A stretch of DNA of 51,480 nt, the filler included, from Malassezia furfur (taxonomy: Eukaryota), in the NCBI GenBank assembly GCA_052055015.1. It is 2 parts of 2 records of this genome, joined end to end, with 100 filler letters (N's around TTAATTAATTAA, not from the genome) between each part and the next. Parts side by side here need not be neighbours in the genome. Positions count along the whole stretch, not along the records: positions 1 to 25,698 come from JBQJIT010000132.1; 1 more part is not named here. One strand, given 5' to 3'. Below are positions 5,722 through 25,798 of the stretch, piece after piece. The number at the start of each line of letters is the position of its first letter. Position 1 is the stretch's first letter. The position numbers were made by a program, and so were the translations under genes. Under the pieces are notes generated by a model. That model had not been told where the DNA came from. It did no database searches and worked only from the letters and a program-made list of their open reading frames with translations.

Positions 5722-6287
5722 ATGAACATACGGCAGGCGACGGTACGCGGCGCGGCACTCACACAGGTCGATGACCTCTTGGGGATGCAGAACTGCAATC
5801 TGCACAACCTTCCGGAAAACTATACCATGCGCTACTGTACGTGCACCGCTTACGCAGACTTTTACCATGCGCTCACCTGGCCGCAGCTGTCCTACGTCGC
5901 CGAGGACGAAAAGGGCAAGATCGTCGGATACATCCTAGGGAAAATGTACGTCGGGATATGCCATGCCGCTCACACCAGGGAGGAGGACCCGACGGATGGG
6001 ATCCCCAACGGCCACGTCACCAGCATCTCGGTGCTCCGCTCGCACCGCCGCTTGGGCCTGGCGAACAAACTCATGAAGCTCAGCCGTGCGTGTTGCCCCT
6101 GCTCACCCCAGAGACCGCGATGCGAGACACCTTCAATGCCCAGTACGTGTCGCTCCACGTGCGCGAGACGAACCGCGCAGCGATCGCCCTGTACCGCGAC
6201 ACGCTTGGCTTCCAGGTGCACGGCACCGAGCACAAGTACTACGCCGACGGCGAAAATGCGCTGGCCATGCGCATGCAGCTGCAGTAG
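5722..6287 (+). CDS. ARD1: NatA N-terminal acetyltransferase catalytic subunit; 4 introns (5743-5766, 5837-5857, 5946-5978, 6086-6111)
   Basis: Spliced product: [45 protein letters not shown]...[18 protein letters not shown]...[10 protein letters not shown]...KYYADGENA. Confidence 0.95.
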
Positions 6288-6398: not shown

Positions 6399-8045
6399 TC
6401 ATAACAGTCTCCGCTTGAAGTCCGACTCCCAGTAATCACGATCCCAATCGTTTGTGTTGGGTGTGAAGATACGGTCAATCGCAAAGTAGGCCGCAATAAG
6501 CGCCACAATGATGGCAGCAAGGACGACCCAAGCAGCAGCCTGGTAAATGTGCACCTTGTGGTTGTCCTCGGGGTCCTCTTGCTTGTTCGGCGTGCCCTTG
6601 GACTTGGGCGTATGCGGCAACCCAAAGGTATCATTCCGGGTCGCGTTAAAGTCCTTCCCAAAGATGAAGTCCAGCGATGAGGTGGCCGCAATCATCGGGT
6701 AGTCCTGATGCGAGACGCCTGCGACATAGCCCAGCGAATGGTTCACAGGCCAGGCATTGTTGTTCATGGTGGCGAGGGCCGAAACAAAGTTCGTGCCACG
6801 CTCCAAGTGGTTCGCACCCTGGTACTGGGCCTGGCAGTGCGTATCACCGGCACCATTGTCGAGCAGCGCGAGGCCATAGTGGATCTGCTTTTGAAAGAAA
6901 CGCTGGACAAACGGCTGGGTATCTTGCATGACCTCACTCCGAGCGTACTTAGGAACGACACTGAGGTTGTATCCGAGACCGTATGGCCACCGGTTTTTCA
7001 ACTCCACAGGGTCGCATTGCAGCGGTGCATTGGTCACAGGCTGCGTGTCGTTCTGGAGCCACGGCCAAGAACCGGGGTTTCCAATCCAGTACTTGACACT
7101 TGCATCGTACTTCTTTTCCCGCTTCAACAAGGCATAACGTGCCACAGCCTGTCCACCCATCGAATGGCCGGCGACAACCAGCTGGTTCACTTTCGGGAAC
7201 AGCGTCCGGTTCATAGCCAGGTCCAAGATTTTGTCCATCGCCGAGTAGAACGACACCGAGTGCGTCAAGTTGGGGTAATGCGTCACGCCACCCATCTGCC
7301 AGATGGACGAGTTGTACGCTGCCCAGTTGGGCTCAACACCTCCAGCAGCCTGGTCGTCGAGGTTCAACACGGTAGGCGCAATGATCATCACTTCGCCTGG
7401 CTGGATGCCGTACAGTGACTGGTTGTACACCCAGTTCCGTGCGTTGTAGAACAGGTTCGCATACTTCCACGAGTCACGAGGCTTACCTGGAAGCGCGACG
7501 ATAACACGCTTTACTTGCGTATAGTCGACATCGTCAGAAATGAAGTAGGGTTGCACCACCCCCATCGTGGTGGTGCCGTTCTCCATCGTGAAGGTCTGGT
7601 TCGTAATTTGCAACGACGTGTTCATGACAAATCCCTGAAAGTTGGGGGGGATCCACGACCATCCAAGGTTGTTGGCGCCCATGGGAACATTTGTGGTTTG
7701 CGTGAAGGGGAAGTTGCCTCCGTCGAACCAAGGCACCTGTGCTTCGTCACCATCCGCACTCTGAATGATTTGGCCATACTGTTCTTGGGCCCAAGTCGGT
7801 TCATTCTGCTTGAGGTTAGGGAAGGTCTTCACAAGGTTGATAGCACCAACTGGGTCCGTGTCGGACATAGATGCCGCTTGCTGTTGTTGCCCCCCATCTC
7901 CCGACGAACCCTGTCGTTTAGCCAGTCGAGATTTCCGCTCGTCCGGCCTTGCAATCCTCAACCGTCCCGCGGCTGAGTCGGCCACCACTACATTGGCAAT
8001 GAGGCATAGCACAGCGAGGAGCAACCATGCCTTCGGGGTCGTCAT
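6399..8045 (-). CDS. Secreted alpha/beta-hydrolase paralog 1 with C-terminal transmembrane anchor; intronless
   Basis: Signal peptide MTTPKAWLLLAVLCLIANVVVA, dibasic LAKR, nucleophile elbow GHSMGGQ, WIGNPGS, LLDNG and VSHQD. C-terminal hydrophobic helix AAAWVVLAAIIVALIAAYFAI. Confidence 0.85.
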   Translation of the reverse strand: MTTPKAWLLLAVLCLIANVVVADSAAGRLRIARPDERKSRLAKRQGSSGDGGQQQQAASMSDTDPVGAINLVKTFPNLKQNEPTWAQEQYGQIIQSADGDEAQVPWFDGGNFPFTQTTNVPMGANNLGWSWIPPNFQGFVMNTSLQITNQTFTMENGTTTMGVVQPYFISDDVDYTQVKRVIVALPGKPRDSWKYANLFYNARNWVYNQSLYGIQPGEVMIIAPTVLNLDDQAAGGVEPNWAAYNSSIWQMGGVTHYPNLTHSVSFYSAMDKILDLAMNRTLFPKVNQLVVAGHSMGGQAVARYALLKREKKYDASVKYWIGNPGSWPWLQNDTQPVTNAPLQCDPVELKNRWPYGLGYNLSVVPKYARSEVMQDTQPFVQRFFQKQIHYGLALLDNGAGDTHCQAQYQGANHLERGTNFVSALATMNNNAWPVNHSLGYVAGVSHQDYPMIAATSSLDFIFGKDFNATRNDTFGLPHTPKSKGTPNKQEDPEDNHKVHIYQAAAWVVLAAIIVALIAAYFAIDRIFTPNTNDWDRDYWESDFKRRLL

Positions 8046-8568
8046 GGTTACCCGGCACCGAACGTGAGGAAAACTCGTCGCAGTTAACGTCGAGGGAAAA
8101 GACCGTGACCCATGCCCTGAATCCCTTGCCTTGGAACTAAGTGGCGCGACACGTCTTGGGTGGACATTCGCAATGCAGGGCATGCAGCACGGGGGGAATG
8201 CCTGCCCGTCCTAACATGCCTCTTCCTCATTGGCCTGCTCGCCCTTTGCTGCGAACCTGTCGGGGAGTTATGCTGTTGTGCGAACTCGCCTGCTGTAATC
8301 TACATTTCTAGGGGGCTTACGCCCAACGGTTCGGTGGAGGGGTGGAAAATCGAACTGTGGCTATGCCAAAAAAATGAGGATCGCCAGTGCACGGCGTATG
8401 GCAGTGCTTCGCCGTGCACGGCGTGATCGGCGTAATTGTACAAAGATCTCGGAGAGTTTATAGTCTTGGTGTACAGGCGAGCTCATATAGCCAATTCATG
8501 AAAAGTGTCTAATGGTTCCTCCTAGCTAGGAACAACTACAAATTACGTAGTCCTCATTTCTAATCGTC

Positions 8569-9894
8569 TTAGATGCCGTTTCCAAAGATGAAGTCCAGCG
8601 ACTCGGTGGCCGCAATCATCGGGTAGTCTTGGTGGGAGACACCAGCAACATACGAGACGGCCTGCGTCGACGGTAATCCACCATCTTGCTTGCTCAGCAT
8701 CTCAACAAAGTTTGCGCCACGCTGAAGGTGGTTGGCACCCTGGGCGTACGACTCGCAGTGCGTGTCACCTGCGCCGTTGTCCAGCAGGCCAAACGCGTAG
8801 CGAATTTGGCGGCTGCGGAACCGGTTCACCATGTCACCCGTGGTCTCGCCATCGTTGAGCATGCTCCGAACGTATTTAGGGAAGTTGGAACTCTCGTCGA
8901 GACCATACGGGAACTTGTTGGTGTTGCCGTCACAGTCGCCACCGGCGGGCCGGTCCGCCGTGAGCCACGTGAAAGAACCGGGGTTGCCGATCCAGTAAAG
9001 AACGTCGTCGTCGTTGTCCTGACCATGACGGAAAAGCGCGTAGCGCTGAGCGGCCTGGCCACCCATGGAGTGGCCACCCACAACCACCTTTCCCAGGTTC
9101 GGGTAAACCGACTTGTCCAAGAGCATGTCAATCATTTTGTCGAGCGCAGTGTAGAAGGACACGCTCGAGTCTGCGGCAGGGGCCTGCGTAGATCCACCAA
9201 ATTCCCAGTTGGAGCCACCGTACACAGCCCAGTCCGCGCCATCATCGCTGGTGGCACCGGCAGCTTGGTCGTTGGTGTTGAGTACAATCGGCGCCACAAT
9301 GATCACTTCACCTTCTTGGATGTCATAAAGCGATTGGTTGTACACCCAGTTCAGCGCGTTGTTGAACAGGTTGGCATACTTCCAGGAGTCACGCGGCTGT
9401 CCAGGCAAAGCAAGAATGGCACGCTTGACCTTCGACGCATCAAAGTCGCTGGTGATGAAGTAGGGCTGAACGACCCTCGTGTCGCCATCCGAGATGACGA
9501 GGTCCGTCTTCATCTGGAATCCCTCAAACGACGTAGGAATTGACGTCCATCCATCACTCGAGCCGTCGACACTAACCGTATCCGTAAAGGGAAAGTTGCC
9601 GTTGTCGAACCAGGGAACTTGGGAGCTATCCCCGTAGTTCGAAACAAACAACCCGTTGTCTTGAGTAGCAAACGTCGATGCGTCAAGGTCGCCCAAGTTG
9701 GGCATCTCGAGGACTTCGTTGGTCGCACCAACGGGATCCGGGTAGGCTTGAGACTGAATAGATTGTTGTTCCTCGATGTCATACTGACGACGGTTCAATT
9801 GGTTGCTAGCCTTCTCATCAGCTTTCAAAGGAGCACCCTGCGCAATGGCTGCCAGGCACAAGCCGCACGCCACGGCAATTTGAAATTGCCTCAT
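8569..9894 (-). CDS. Secreted alpha/beta-hydrolase paralog 2 (soluble); intronless
   Basis: Signal peptide MRQFQIAVACGLCLAAIAQG, dibasic LNRR, GHSMGGQ, WIGNPGS, LLDNGAGDTHC and GVSHQDYPMIAAT. Long identical peptide blocks shared with paralog 1. Confidence 0.85.
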   Translation of the reverse strand: MRQFQIAVACGLCLAAIAQGAPLKADEKASNQLNRRQYDIEEQQSIQSQAYPDPVGATNEVLEMPNLGDLDASTFATQDNGLFVSNYGDSSQVPWFDNGNFPFTDTVSVDGSSDGWTSIPTSFEGFQMKTDLVISDGDTRVVQPYFITSDFDASKVKRAILALPGQPRDSWKYANLFNNALNWVYNQSLYDIQEGEVIIVAPIVLNTNDQAAGATSDDGADWAVYGGSNWEFGGSTQAPAADSSVSFYTALDKMIDMLLDKSVYPNLGKVVVGGHSMGGQAAQRYALFRHGQDNDDDVLYWIGNPGSFTWLTADRPAGGDCDGNTNKFPYGLDESSNFPKYVRSMLNDGETTGDMVNRFRSRQIRYAFGLLDNGAGDTHCESYAQGANHLQRGANFVEMLSKQDGGLPSTQAVSYVAGVSHQDYPMIAATESLDFIFGNGI

Positions 9895-10444
9895 TTTGGA
9901 ACGAAGAACAATGTACTGAGACGGTTGACGGGTTGTTCCTTCTTGTTTCTTATACTACTACGTCCTAATCACCCAGACACTCATAACCCGCTTCTACCGT
10001 TTACGGCCAGTTGCCAAGAATTGGTTGCGTGATCAGATCGAATCAGCCAATGAAATTGACAGTAAGTATAGCTTATAAACTTTTCATGGCCTACGTCGGG
10101 ATTAGGGGGTCTTGTAGCCATGGCATATCGGAATTTTAGCCGCAACGGGTAATCGAGTTACTGCACGGATACTGTTTTTGTGGAGGCAATCGAGCCTTAT
10201 CGCGGGGATCGCTCGATATTCTAGGGGTGCATCGGCCATCGACTGCGCATGCTCGCTATCGGTATCGACCGCGTTTTATATAACCAATGGCAAAAAATAA
10301 AAAGAAGAAAATAAGCCAACGACTGGCGAGCCGGTGACTACGGGGTCGGCTAGTATAGGGGTGCAGAGCAACTAGATTACAAGCACCGAGCATTTCGAGA
10401 ATCATGGGGTTATTTAACGCAACTTGAAGGGAAACATAGCCGAA

Positions 10445-11773
10445 TCAGTCACTCTTTGAGCTGATGATAAACTTCAATGACTCGTAATGCGACATCATGG
10501 GATAGTCTTGATGCGAAATGCAGGTAGCAAAGTCGGCAGTGTGCGACTTCGGGAACCCTCCAAAGACGCTCTCAAGCGACTTGAGCCAGTAGGCACCACG
10601 CGAAAGGCGATTGGGCCCTTGCGCTTGGAAAGCGCACTTCTCCGACGTGCCACCGTTGTCGTCCATACCGTACGAGTAGTGGACACGACGGTTCTTGAAG
10701 CGGTTCAACAGTTTGTTCTTCTTCCTGAAATCGCTCGTAGCGTAGCTGGGAGGAGTGCCGTCGAGGCCATAGGGGTATTCATTGTAATCACTGCAGTTGC
10801 TTTGGTAGCCCGACATAGGGCGATTGTCATCCAGGTACATGTACGAACCTGGGCTGCCGACCCAGTAGCTGATTTTGCCGTCGAAGTTGTCCGACTTGCG
10901 CATAATTGCGTAACGCTGAACAGTCTGACCACCCATGGAATGGCCAGCGATCACGACGTGTTTAATATTAGGGAAGTTGGTGCTGTTCAGCGCATAGTTG
11001 ACAAAATGGTCAATGACCGAGAATGAGCTGATTCCTTTGAAGCCCGACGGACCCCGCGTGGTTCCTGCCACCGCCCAGCCAGAGTCCTCGAAGTAGATTT
11101 CGTCCGAGTTCAGCGCACCACGCTCTTGGTCCTTCTGGTTGAAGAAAACGGGCGAGAGCATAAGCACACTGCCTTTCTTGACATCGAGCTCTGGGTACTT
11201 TCGGGCGATGTTGTATGCGTTGCCGATGATGTTGATATAGCTCCAAGAGTCGCGCCATTGTCCAGGAATGACAATCACCGCGCGCTCGATCTTTTCAGCA
11301 TCCTGATAATCATTGACGTAAAACGGCGCGATAGCAGTGTCGTCGCCGTTCGTACGGATAGGCATGGTACGGTTCAACTTGAAGCCCGTGAGGAACTGCG
11401 GAAGGCTAAAGTAGCCATTCTCGTAGTCTCCAAGGGCAATGGGGCTCAAATGGAGTGCGGCGCCACGTGCCCACGGCATCTGCTCCTGGATGACAATCCC
11501 ACGCCCAGGGACAATGTTTTGGTAGTCCCACAAGCCCTCGTTAGGGTCGAGCACGTTCGGAATCTTCAACACTTCATCTGCGGCTCCGATGGGGTCCGTC
11601 ACGCTCAACGTCGAGATCGACTCCTGCGCACTGCACGACGCTTGACGCGCCTGAAGCACTGGGGCGGTGTCGTGTGCACGCTCTCCATTAGCGGTGTCGT
11701 TCGCTGCACATGAGGAGACGATGCATGCCATGGTGCCGAGAAGCAGCGCGTTCAATTTTATGGTGGGCCGCAT
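10445..11773 (-). CDS. Secreted alpha/beta-hydrolase paralog 3 (soluble, more divergent); intronless
   Basis: Signal peptide, DPIGA, PGQWRDSW, GHSMGGQ, WVGSPGS, MDDNGG and ISHQDYPM. Confidence 0.85.
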   Translation of the reverse strand: MRPTIKLNALLLGTMACIVSSCAANDTANGERAHDTAPVLQARQASCSAQESISTLSVTDPIGAADEVLKIPNVLDPNEGLWDYQNIVPGRGIVIQEQMPWARGAALHLSPIALGDYENGYFSLPQFLTGFKLNRTMPIRTNGDDTAIAPFYVNDYQDAEKIERAVIVIPGQWRDSWSYINIIGNAYNIARKYPELDVKKGSVLMLSPVFFNQKDQERGALNSDEIYFEDSGWAVAGTTRGPSGFKGISSFSVIDHFVNYALNSTNFPNIKHVVIAGHSMGGQTVQRYAIMRKSDNFDGKISYWVGSPGSYMYLDDNRPMSGYQSNCSDYNEYPYGLDGTPPSYATSDFRKKNKLLNRFKNRRVHYSYGMDDNGGTSEKCAFQAQGPNRLSRGAYWLKSLESVFGGFPKSHTADFATCISHQDYPMMSHYESLKFIISSKSD

Positions 11774-12266: not shown

Positions 12267-14491
12267 TTAACGACTGCGCGAAGTGCCCAGCCCCCGTTTC
12301 CCTATTATGTTAGTACACTGGTACTGCCGTTGCAATGGAAAACGTACCTGCAAAGAGCCATTTGGGTTTGGATTCTTGGATGCGCCTGTCAGACTCACCC
12401 GCACGCGCCTCTTGGTTGCGTCCGCGGATGCCCATTTCATGCAAGTTCCGCGCCTTCTTTTCTTGTGCCGAGTCGCGAAGACCCTCCGACTGGCGGTTCC
12501 GCGCCGGAATACGAGCGGCACCGGCGCGGGCGGTAATGGGACCACCAACACGGTTGGTAGATGCCGTAGTCGAACTCTTGCCGCGAGTGAGCGCAGCGGA
12601 CCGCTTGACGCCCGCCGCACGGGCCTTTTTCCGGGTGGGCGCCTCGTCTTCCTCGACGGACATGGCCTCGCTGGATTCCCCATCCTCTTCGTCGTCCTCC
12701 ATATCCACATCCTCCTCGTCGCTGTCTTGGCGGCTCTTGCGCTTACCCACCAGGCCCTTGGCTTTAGCCAGGAGTTCGGCGCGCATCTCGATGTTGCTAG
12801 GGTCGATGCCCGCTGCGCGCATGTTCTCGGCCATCTGGGACAGCGTGCGGTGCTGCAGCTTGCGCGGAACCTGCGCACGGCCCTGCAAGGCCTTCTTGTT
12901 CTGTGCCATGAGCTTGGCCTTGTCTTTGCGGTCCTTGATGCCCTGCGCAATGGCACGCATCTCTTCGTCCTCGCTGTTCTGCTCGTCCTCGCTCTCGTCG
13001 TAGAAACCGTCGGCCTCGAGCTTCTCCTCTTCGCGCTCGAGCTTGTCGAGCGAGGCCATAATGTCAGGGTCGATAAAGTCGGCAATGTTCTTGCCCTCGT
13101 AAATTTCGGGAATCGTGTCGTACTTCCACTCATCGTTCGCGAGCATGTAGTTTTTCTTCAAGTCGATGTTGTGCACACCTGCACCGCCCTGCTCCTCCTG
13201 CTCGTCGCGTTCCGTCCGGCGGCGACGGGGGTCGTTGATGTCAAACTTCTTGCGACTGCCATCGGCAATAGCCGGCGGCACAAACGGCTTACGTTCGACA
13301 TCGTCGCGGCGCTGTGGCGTGGCGACGTGGAGACGGTTCATAATCGAGTTCGCCTTGGGGCCCTTGACCTTGCCCTCAACGCGGGTGGCAAGCAGCGTCT
13401 CGCAGGCGTTCTGCTTGAGCTCCATGATACCCTCGTCGGTAAAGGTGCTGATCTGTGCCAGATGAACGTTGCCCTCCTCCAAGAGCCCACGCACCATGCC
13501 CGCGCGCTCGTCATCGAGGTCTTCGAGCTTGGCCACGTCAATCTTGTTGATCACAAGGAAGGTCGGCTTGTTGGCGAAAAGAGGCTTGATGCTGTTGAAG
13601 AGCTGCACTTGCGCCTCAATCGTGTAGCCACACTGCTCCGAGAGATCCATAAAGTACATGACTGCCGCACGCAGATGCGCCAGCGCCGTGATGGCCTGCA
13701 TTTCAATCGTGTTCATCTCCTCCAATGGGTGGTCGAGGATACCAGGCGTGTCGATGACCTGCCAGCGCAGGTACTTGTAGTCCATATGGCCCACGAACAG
13801 CGACTTGGTTGTGAACGCGTACGGCTGCACGTCAACGTCGGCACGCGTCACTTTGTTGATAAAGCTCGACTTGCCGACGTTAGGGTAGCCACAAATGACC
13901 AGCGTCCGTGTTGACGGGTCGATCGAGGGCAGACGCGAGATATGCTGACGGACCTGCTCAAGGTACGCAAGCGGGTCTTTGTTGCGGCGCATGATGGTGG
14001 CCATGCGACCGAGCGCCGCGCGCTTCAGCTGCTTGCAGCGGAACAGACTGTCACCAAACTTGATCAGGCGGACATAGTCCTTAGCCACCTGCTCGATCAG
14101 ATGCCGCGCAGTGTTAATCTGGCCAAGCGCGAGCTTGTAGTGATTCTTGTCGTAAAGGACACTGCGGGTGTTAGTACCAAATCCAAGGTGGGGTGCAACT
14201 TACTTCATCAGGGACGACGTGAAAGGATGCAAATTCTACACGGTCAGCAAGCTGGGTACCTGCAACACATACCTCAAGAACAGGAAACTCATTGAGAATG
14301 CCCTGCAGCTTTTCCACGAAAGCATCCTTGGTGAACATCACCTTGCGCATATAGAATGAGCGGATGCGCGTGATTTTGAAGCCAGGGTGAATAACCGTCG
14401 GCGTCTTCCGCTGGGTCTTCGACAAGACAATGTCCAGAAAGTCATTTGCGGTAGGTACCGGCGCAATCGACGCCTTCAACGTTGCCGACAT
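12267..14491 (-). CDS. NOG1: Nucleolar GTP-binding protein Nog1 (60S biogenesis); 3 introns
   Basis: [58 protein letters not shown] and NKID. Spliced C-terminus [17 protein letters not shown]. Confidence 0.96.
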
Positions 14492-25698: not shown

Positions 25699-25798
25699 NN
25701 NNNNNNNNNNNNNNNNNNNNNNNNNNNNNNNNNNNNNNNNNNTTAATTAATTAANNNNNNNNNNNNNNNNNNNNNNNNNNNNNNNNNNNNNNNNNNNN
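25699..25798. other. Artificial contig/scaffold spacer (N44-TTAATTAATTAA-N44)
   Basis: Exactly 100 bp of Ns around a palindromic linker that carries stop codons in all six frames. Confidence 0.97.

What the first reader, a model, noticed from the sequence alone, without database searches (positions are those of the whole stretch)
6399..11773. Tandem array of three intronless secreted serine hydrolases: one membrane-tethered, two soluble
Seen: three co-oriented paralogs sit between the housekeeping genes NAA10 and NOG1. They share a signal peptide, a propeptide ending in a basic site (LAKR, LNRR, LQAR), DPxGA, PGxxRDSW, GHSMGGQ, (N/S)PGS, DNG..C..QGxN.L.RG and SHQDYPM, which suggests a Ser-Asp-His triad. 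They have no introns, are visibly less GC-rich than the genes at 0-6 kb, and are separated by 500+ bp spacers, whereas many other spacers here are under 100 bp. Only paralog 1 has a C-terminal TM helix and a cytosolic tail (DWDRDYWESDFKRRLL). I do not recognise the motifs of the well-studied Malassezia lipases (LIP family, class 3). Inference: an uncharacterised, lineage-expanded extracellular esterase system, with a cell-surface enzyme plus released enzymes, for skin lipid or ester use. The motif set recalls bacterial alpha/beta hydrolases, so ancient horizontal transfer is possible.
Basis: partly seen in the sequence, partly recalled or inferred. Interest (0 to 1): 0.72.

Follow-up and report, generated by a model that had tools for sequence, protein, structure and literature searches.

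The report
Unanchored fungal PahZ1-like serine hydrolases
Three neighbouring genes of the skin yeast Malassezia encode secreted enzymes of an unstudied fungal family related to bacterial polyaspartate hydrolases; the family came from plant-associated ancestors, and what looks specific to Malassezia is the loss of the membrane anchor in some copies, while the substrate is unknown.

Summary
The three intact, co-oriented ORFs are real and under purifying selection (dN/dS 0.09-0.11). The genome is a Malassezia furfur hybrid. All three keep a Ser-Asp-His triad. It maps onto the mutationally tested triad of bacterial poly(aspartate) hydrolase PahZ1, the closest solved fold together with 3D0K (Z 22 against 16 for the next hit). 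They match no Pfam family above cut-off and are not LIP or class 3 lipases.

Horizontal transfer into Malassezia is not supported. The family is widespread in fungi, the Malassezia copies nest among smut homologues, and plant-associated relatives also have three copies. The trio is not a recent triplication.

The membrane-anchored paralog is the ancestral form and sits at a conserved NOG1-NAA10 position. Loss of the anchor appears Malassezia-specific: 13 of 20 named Malassezia homologues against 0 of 42 others.

My best reading is secreted carboxyl-ester hydrolases acting on surface or polymeric esters. PahZ1-like amide cleavage is the main rival. Substrate and the location of paralog 1 are unshown. 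A sister subfamily, conserved across Dikarya, has the nucleophile Ser replaced by Gly.

The parts
6399..8045 (-). Paralog 1 (548 aa): signal peptide, propeptide ending LAKR (aa 41-44), alpha/beta hydrolase domain with S295-D396-H446, linker, TM helix, cytosolic tail; the ancestral anchored form
   Evidence: dN/dS 0.090; synteny
6477..6533 (-). Predicted TM helix of paralog 1 (aa 505-523)
   Evidence: hydropathy 2.71
6402..6476 (-). Cytosolic tail, conserved in 7 of 7 named Malassezia TM homologues; acidic, two Trp, ends K-R-R-L-L; probable sorting signal of unknown meaning
   Evidence: Arg at -3 is not a canonical dilysine signal (PMC3521961)
7161..7163 (-). Nucleophile Ser295 codon of paralog 1 (Asp396 at 6858-6860, His446 at 6708-6710)
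8569..9894 (-). Paralog 2 (441 aa): unanchored and acidic (pI about 4.2); S276-D372-H421; His389 at the PahZ1 Arg246 site
   Evidence: dN/dS 0.103
9067..9069 (-). Nucleophile Ser276 codon of paralog 2 (Asp372 at 8779-8781, His421 at 8632-8634)
   Evidence: invariant in 83 of 83 aligned homologues
10445..11773 (-). Paralog 3 (442 aa): unanchored, member of an older Malassezia clade; S279-D372-H421; Arg389 at the PahZ1 Arg246 site
   Evidence: dN/dS 0.106
10937..10939 (-). Nucleophile Ser279 codon of paralog 3 (Asp372 at 10658-10660, His421 at 10511-10513)
5722..6287 (+). Flanking NAA10/ARD1 gene (intron-containing); synteny marker
   Evidence: MSYG_0032 annotated ARD1 next to MSYG_0033
12267..14491 (-). 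Flanking NOG1-like GTPase gene (intron-containing; ends inferred); synteny marker
   Evidence: name recalled from sequence

Best explanation
These are three active secretory-pathway serine hydrolases of an unnamed fungal family whose closest characterised relative is bacterial PahZ1/3D0K. Shown: intact genes under purifying selection, alpha/beta hydrolase fold, triad positions homologous to the tested PahZ1 triad, descent from fungal ancestors, anchored form ancestral at this locus, unanchored forms confined to Malassezia in my sample. Inferred: a signal peptide and Kex2-type propeptide are removed; the Ser attacks a carbonyl via an acyl-enzyme, helped by His and Asp; paralog 1 stays membrane-bound (surface or Golgi/endosome) while paralogs 2 and 3 are released. 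Most likely reaction (about 45-50%): hydrolysis of carboxylic esters on cell-surface or polymeric substrates, such as acylated wall glycans or glycolipids, hydroxy-fatty-acid or wax-type esters. The ancestral job was probably at the fungal wall or plant surface; release of copies would let Malassezia act on the skin surface at a distance.
For: Model pLDDT 92.8. Best structural matches 3D0K Z 22.4 and PahZ1 9O7U Z 22.2, next 16.2; Foldseek ranks 9O7U, 6VE6 and 3D0K first (E 4e-11 to 4e-9). Sequence bridge: fungal profile to bacterial profile E 1.7e-53, bacterial profile to 6VE6 E 5.5e-20. S276, D372 and H421 are invariant in 83 of 83 rows and align with PahZ1 S157, D225 and H280 (PMC13017698). 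dN/dS 0.09-0.11 between haplotypes. The Malassezia rows form one group (SH-aLRT 89) inside a starred fungal clade. Synteny NOG1-hydrolase-NAA10 with the TM copy always next to NAA10. Unanchored in 13 of 20 named Malassezia against 0 of 42 other named fungi. The M. sympodialis TM orthologue is made as protein (4 unique peptides, PMC6004016 Table S1A). For esters rather than amides: 114 of 120 close homologues carry His where PahZ1 needs Arg246, paralog 2 is acidic while PahZ1 has a basic trough, and the next structural neighbours are CE1 feruloyl and siderophore esterases. Fungal relatives are GPI-like, TM or WSC-fused.
Against: I found no assayed member of the fungal family or of the bridging bacterial clade. 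The only assayed relative, PahZ1, cleaves amides, not esters. Identity to any solved structure is 14-19%, too low to transfer a substrate. Expression and secretion of these three genes were not tested. The locus tag next to MSYG_0033, probably the soluble copy, is absent from the cell and vesicle proteome (0 hits), although supernatant was not the sample. Bacterial gene neighbourhoods gave no consistent functional clue. Model coordinates could not be read, so triad geometry and pocket shape were not measured.
Confidence: 0.55

Rival explanations
1. PahZ1-like amide or isopeptide hydrolases: they cleave non-alpha peptide bonds (beta-aspartyl, gamma-glutamyl) in acidic polymers or cross-linked proteins; paralog 3 is the best candidate.
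For: The closest assayed relative cleaves beta-amide bonds of poly(Asp) (PMC13017698, PMC4456602). Paralog 3 and several of its clade carry Arg at the position of PahZ1 Arg246, as do 109 of 117 bacterial homologues. In Pseudomonas the gene lies 4 bp behind a zinc metallopeptidase gene (L096).
Against: Paralogs 1 and 2 have His at that site. The PahZ1 His pair is replaced by a Cys-containing loop. Mature paralogs are acidic to neutral (pI 4.2-6.1). TM-score to PahZ1 is 0.72 against more than 0.90 among true PahZ1 homologues. The peptidase linkage is confined to one genus.
Confidence: 0.2
2. Nutritional lipases or phospholipases that free fatty acids from sebum triglycerides.
For: Malassezia is lipid-dependent and expands secreted lipid hydrolases (PMC4634964). 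Anchor loss is Malassezia-specific. An automated UniRef label calls two homologues 'Triacylglycerol lipase'.
Against: No LIP (PF03583) match in 83 members and Lipase_3 in only 2 of 83 at E 0.005. Lipases are not among the top structural matches. The family predates the skin lifestyle and has equal copy number in some plant-associated fungi.
Confidence: 0.15
3. Paralog 1 is a resident of the secretory pathway (Golgi, ER or endosome) that deacylates or remodels the fungus's own lipids, anchors or glycans; the released copies have drifted to other substrates.
For: The tail is conserved in 7 of 7 named Malassezia TM forms, and 7 of 34 non-Malassezia TM forms end in canonical KxKxx, like Golgi-localised yeast Emp47p KTKLL (PMC2200007 abstract start). 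The M. sympodialis orthologue is not enriched in extracellular vesicles (log2 -0.26). Weak PGAP1 matches in 17 of 83 members.
Against: Arg cannot replace Lys at -3 (PMC3521961), so KRRLL is not a canonical COPI signal. The PGAP1 match is below cut-off (16 against 24.3 bits) and limited to the nucleophile elbow. Many relatives have GPI-like ends or WSC domains, pointing outside the cell.
Confidence: 0.2
4. Horizontal transfer from bacteria into the Malassezia lineage followed by a recent triplication.
For: No introns, GC lower than upstream genes, clear bacterial homologues.
Against: Fungal homologues are far closer than bacterial ones; bacteria fall on one side of a branch (98*) and Malassezia nests within smut and agaric homologues. 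An AU test rejects the three as one clade (p 7.5e-5). GC3 matches other genes in the window. A much older transfer into early Dikarya is not excluded, because the tree has no independent root.
Confidence: 0.03

Closest known systems
Poly(aspartic acid) hydrolase PahZ1 (Sphingomonas KT-1, PDB 6VE6; Pedobacter KP-2, PDB 9O7U)
   Same: Alpha/beta hydrolase core over about 245 residues (Z 22.2, rmsd 3.1); triad positions; GHSxGGQ elbow, YGL and QGxxRxxRG motifs; exported enzyme.
   Different: 14-16% identity; TM-score 0.72; about 85 extra ordered N-terminal residues and a conserved Cys pair; His instead of Arg246 in paralogs 1 and 2; acidic rather than basic; eukaryotic propeptide and, in paralog 1, a TM anchor.
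Bordetella parapertussis 'putative PHB depolymerase LpqC' (PDB 3D0K)
   Same: Top structural match (Z 22.4, rmsd 2.8, 19% identity); same motifs.
   Different: Labelled 'putative' in the PDB sequence file; I saw no activity data for it (passages of PMC12278694); lacks the fungal extensions.
CE1 feruloyl esterases, siderophore esterases (EstB, IroE, Fes), esterase D, antigen 85
   Same: Next tier of structural matches (Z 13-16); Ser-Asp/Glu-His chemistry.
   Different: About 6 Z units below PahZ1/3D0K; 10-16% identity; no significant profile match.
Malassezia LIP-family (PF03583) and class 3 (PF01764) lipases
   Same: Secreted serine hydrolases, often duplicated in Malassezia (PMC4634964).
   Different: No Pfam match in the three proteins; different motifs and structural neighbours.
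GPI inositol deacylase PGAP1/Bst1
   Same: Lumenal alpha/beta hydrolase with a GHSMGG elbow and membrane anchoring (architecture recalled).
   Different: Match below cut-off and confined to about 40 residues; single TM helix here against several in PGAP1 (recalled).

Membership tests
alpha/beta hydrolase superfamily, serine type | Alpha/beta hydrolase fold | tested here: met
   (paralog 2 modelled; paralogs 1 and 3 by 52% and 33% identity to it)
alpha/beta hydrolase superfamily, serine type | Ser in G-x-S-x-G plus acid and His in order | tested here: met
   S276, D372, H421 invariant in 83 of 83; present in all three
alpha/beta hydrolase superfamily, serine type | Catalytic activity | not testable with these tools
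   needs assay
PahZ1 poly(Asp) hydrolases | Same fold with TM-score above 0.9 and about 40% identity or more, as among assayed homologues | tested here: not met
   TM-score 0.71-0.72 and 14-16% identity against 0.90-0.97 and 39-93% (PMC13017698 Table 2)
PahZ1 poly(Asp) hydrolases | Triad at homologous positions | tested here: met
   S157, D225, H280 map to S276, D372, H421
PahZ1 poly(Asp) hydrolases | Substrate-positioning Arg246 | tested here: inconclusive
   His in paralogs 1 and 2, Arg in paralog 3
PahZ1 poly(Asp) hydrolases | Positively charged substrate trough | tested here: inconclusive
   only whole-domain pI computed (5.5, 4.2, 6.1); surface map not available
PahZ1 poly(Asp) hydrolases | Cleavage of beta-amide bonds | not testable with these tools
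   needs assay
Secretory lipase LIP (PF03583) | Pfam match at cut-off | tested here: not met
   no hit at E up to 1 in the three proteins; not among families hit by 83 members
Class 3 lipase (PF01764) | Pfam match at cut-off | tested here: not met
   none in the three; 2 of 83 members at best E 0.0049
PGAP1/Bst1 (PF07819) | Pfam match at cut-off | tested here: not met
   16 and 13.8 bits against 24.3, elbow only
Dilysine (KxKxx) COPI cargo | Lys at -3 and -5 or -4 | tested here: not met
   paralog 1 has Arg at -3; Arg not accepted (PMC3521961); 7 of 34 non-Malassezia TM homologues do meet it
ESTHER family assignment | Match to an ESTHER family profile | not testable with these tools
   ESTHER is not among the libraries held
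Ustilago maydis Row family | Homologue is one of the Row genes | tested here: not met
   Row2-6 tags and architecture differ from UMAG_05987; Row1's own tag not seen; no sequence comparison made

The most novel reading that the evidence does not exclude
Fungi carry an unrecognised branch of the PahZ1 family that cleaves non-canonical amide bonds. Malassezia released ancestrally anchored copies, with paralog 3 keeping the PahZ1 substrate Arg, to cut isoaspartyl or gamma-glutamyl cross-links in the cornified skin layer. A Dikarya-wide sister subfamily lacking the catalytic Ser would act as a binding protein or receptor for the same kind of ligand. This would suggest a natural role for PahZ1-type enzymes and a new way for a skin commensal to act on the barrier.
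Probability: 0.12. Interest if true: 0.8.

Novelty: new variant of a known kind. Interest (0 to 1): 0.42.

Why it matters
Catalogues of Malassezia secreted hydrolases built on Pfam would miss this family, since the three proteins fall below every Pfam cut-off. M. furfur has eight family members per haplotype. The link to PahZ1 gives exact residues to mutate and a short substrate list. Malassezia-specific anchor loss is a testable signature of adaptation to skin. The conserved Ser-to-Gly subfamily points to an unexplained non-catalytic or unusual function across Dikarya. Without a substrate it remains one more uncharacterised alpha/beta hydrolase family, hence a moderate score.

Tried and rejected
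Library scans: NCBIfam gave 0 families for all three proteins. Single-sequence PDB search found only weak esterase D-like hits at the elbow.

Bacterial neighbourhoods: 80 loci were clustered; apart from the hydrolase itself, recurring neighbours were mostly confined to single genera, chiefly Pseudomonas. I scanned 28 of 102 neighbours against Pfam and they were unrelated to each other, so no guilt-by-association.

ChaC (gamma-glutamylcyclotransferase) fusions in M. equina and M. caprae records are probably merged gene models of neighbours; not used.

UMAG_02816 is up-regulated in infection tables. I dropped it, because the shared number with UHOD/UBRO_02816 does not show orthology. UMAG_05987 had 0 hits in the supplements of PMC6881057 and PMC10126416.

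The Row family of U. maydis was considered and rejected. A canonical dilysine reading of KRRLL was rejected. Low GC as a sign of transfer was rejected.

No paper describing these genes or a fungal PahZ1-like family turned up in searches. The library lacks most subscription journals and M. furfur, M. globosa and M. restricta tags were not searched, so this is weak evidence. Earlier scan notes returned nothing. Expression of this locus could not be tested with reads.
Full report
Observation. The three ORFs exist as described on the minus strand: 6399-8045, 8569-9894 and 10445-11773. Paralogs 2 and 3 are 52% and 32% identical to paralog 1 and share the listed motifs. Hydropathy gives each an N-terminal hydrophobic stretch and only paralog 1 a C-terminal helix, aa 505-523. 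Spacers are 523 and 550 bp. GC is 0.54 against 0.64 upstream, but GC3 (0.69) equals that of other genes at 15-20 kb (0.60-0.68), so composition says nothing about origin.

Organism and genome. Close database relatives are labelled Malassezia furfur. The 13.7 Mb assembly holds the array twice (C132, C131; 84-88% protein identity), as expected for a hybrid (hybrids are described in PMC9040865, abstract read). Between the two copies dN/dS is 0.090, 0.103 and 0.106, against 0.068 for part of NOG1, so all three are maintained as proteins. Two single-protein searches found eight family members per haplotype: this trio; a second tandem trio on C82/C90; one gene on C161/C129; and one on C140/C167, whose C167 copy is frameshifted. 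The C129 copy was seen only as a match, not translated.

What the proteins are. No Pfam family reaches its cut-off and NCBIfam gives nothing; weak hits cover only the nucleophile elbow. An AlphaFold model of paralog 2 from 83 sequences is confident (pLDDT 92.8) from about residue 40 on, with the signal and propeptide region disordered. Two structure searches agree. Foldseek ranks PahZ1 (9O7U, 6VE6) and 3D0K first. The exhaustive search gives 3D0K Z 22.4 and 9O7U Z 22.2, then 16.2. Sequence confirms the link in two steps: fungal profile to a profile of nine bacterial-type homologues, E 1.7e-53, and that profile to 6VE6, E 5.5e-20. The direct fungal profile also ranks 6VE6 and 3D0K first, but weakly (E 0.01, 0.018). 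I first recalled the PahZ1 resemblance from the motifs and then tested it with these calls. PahZ1 KT-1 needs S157, D225, H280 and R246 (PMC13017698: abstract, passages, section 18 and part 1 of the introduction). Counting along the alignments, these map to S276, D372, H421 and H389 of paralog 2. The triad is invariant in 83 of 83 rows and present in all three paralogs. At the R246 site, 114 of 120 close homologues have His, 109 of 117 bacterial hits have Arg, and paralog 3 has Arg (counts by a short motif pattern). So they work like PahZ1 chemically but are not members by the similarity seen among assayed PahZ1 enzymes (TM-score 0.72 against over 0.90).

Origin. Homologues are named from smuts, Tilletia, Exobasidium, Ceraceosorus and Schizophyllum (best 120 of 154 listed). 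The exhaustive search finds 1769 clusters at E 0.001 or better, including forms fused to WSC domains; an atlas cluster of such fusions is mostly Ascomycota. Bacterial homologues come mainly from soil Proteobacteria and Acidobacteria, and 104 of 117 have a hydrophobic N-terminus. In a 136-row FastTree and a 46-row IQ-TREE (rows hand-picked, LG+G4, SH-aLRT only), the Malassezia rows of this subfamily form one group (85 and 89). That group lies inside a starred clade with smut and agaric sequences, and the bacterial rows lie on one side of a branch (93 and 98*). Holding the three window genes together is rejected (AU p 7.5e-5): each has closer relatives in other Malassezia species. Transfer into Malassezia and recent triplication are therefore not supported. 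An older transfer into early Dikarya stays open, since there is no independent root, many rows are unlabelled and the bacterial sample is the top of one profile search.

What is specific to Malassezia. In skin-type metagenome contigs the order NOG1, hydrolase(s), NAA10, SEC14-like recurs. Several loci have one TM copy only (L022-L024, L028-L030, L032, L036, L052, L054); L019/L020 have two anchored copies; L018/L021, identical to M. sympodialis MSYG_0033, have a soluble copy upstream of the TM copy (tails read for 8 of these 14 loci, the rest by similarity). Relatives of paralog 3 lie at other loci in other lineages (L037-L057). Among named hits, 13 of 20 Malassezia proteins have no anchor, against 0 of 42 from other fungi: 34 TM plus tail, 5 hydrophobic ends, and 3 Tilletia proteins unclassified by the script but continuing well past the domain. 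Copy number is not special, since Exobasidium and Violaceomyces each have three named members. The signal is release from the membrane. These counts rest on automatic gene models and a truncated hit list.

Expression and location. I could not test reads for this locus. The M. sympodialis TM orthologue was detected by mass spectrometry (4 unique peptides, 8 spectra) and was not enriched in vesicles (log2 -0.26); the adjacent tag MSYG_0034 was absent from that table (PMC6004016, Table S1A rows and header). The supplement held for PMC5389616 gave no hit; its larger tables were not held and might bear on this. The tail of paralog 1 is conserved in 7 of 7 named Malassezia TM forms, and 7 of 34 other TM forms end in canonical KxKxx. 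Arg at -3, as here, does not bind COPI (PMC3521961, passages). The acidic two-Trp stretch resembles coat-binding motifs (recalled, untested). Paralog 1 may thus be at the surface or inside the secretory pathway.

Mechanism and rivals. Most likely these are acyl-enzyme serine hydrolases acting on carboxylic esters of surface or polymeric substrates. The basis is indirect: loss of the PahZ1 Arg in two of three, acidic surface, esterases as the next structural tier, and wall-targeting anchors across the fungal family. PahZ1-like amide cleavage (best for paralog 3), triglyceride lipase activity, and an intracellular remodelling role for paralog 1 are the rivals. The last is partly compatible with the best reading. 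Bacterial neighbourhoods gave no help.

Side finding. The second trio belongs to a sister subfamily (profile-profile E 8e-36). In it the nucleophile is Gly in 104 of 109 hits, with 5 not matching the motif pattern. It spans Malassezia, smuts, agarics, Fusarium, Aspergillus, Penicillium, Metarhizium and Dactylellina. The His is invariant in 57 of 57 rows, while the column aligned to the catalytic Asp is not among the invariant or nearly invariant ones. The fold is again closest to 3D0K and PahZ1 (pLDDT 90.1), and dN/dS is 0.054-0.057. It is a strongly conserved probable pseudo-enzyme.

Novelty and verdict. No paper on these genes or on a fungal PahZ1-like family appeared in searches. PMC13017698 has no occurrence of 'fung'. 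The passages of PMC4634964 and PMC13448219 that I saw do not mention it. ESTHER could not be searched. This is a new variant of a known kind; interest 0.42.

Noticed in passing
G000 C82:21698-26427 and C90:6028-10759 (loci L008, L010-L013, L015): Second tandem trio of secreted family members with Gly in place of the nucleophile Ser; the subfamily is conserved across Dikarya (104 of 109 hits), keeps the His and the PahZ1-like fold, and has dN/dS about 0.055. Probable pseudo-enzyme or binding protein.
   Followed up: partly
L014 (G000 C161:6692-7741) and C129:6732-7787: A member of the Gly subfamily that has Ser at the nucleophile position in the C161 copy, with a GPI-like C-terminus; reversion or retained ancestral state.
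   Followed up: partly
L007 (G000 C140) and L009 (C167): GPI-like paralog with a Phe before the Ser, as in PahZ1 KP-2; the C167 haplotype copy is split over two frames (frameshift or assembly error).
   Followed up: partly
window 25699-25798: Two runs of N; only window 1-25698 maps to contig C132, so the window spans a scaffold gap.
   Followed up: no
window 6402-6476: Cytosolic tail nearly invariant across Malassezia TM orthologues, while smut orthologues end in KxKxx or related basic-LL signals; a possibly undescribed sorting signal.
   Followed up: partly
proteins P0016, P0027 (M. equina, M. caprae records): Database proteins fuse a ChaC gamma-glutamylcyclotransferase domain to a soluble family member; probably merged gene models, but it places ChaC beside the array in those species.
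   Followed up: no
L096:3990-5867 and other Pseudomonas loci: The bacterial homologue lies directly behind a neutral zinc metallopeptidase gene (PF04228); that neighbour occurs in 23 of 24 Pseudomonas loci.
   Followed up: partly
proteins P0198, P0206, P0214, P0222, P0231: Fungal homologues carry the hydrolase domain fused to Cys-rich repeats (WSC confirmed by Pfam in P0198 and P0206, PAN-like in P0206), suggesting glycan-targeted action.
   Followed up: partly
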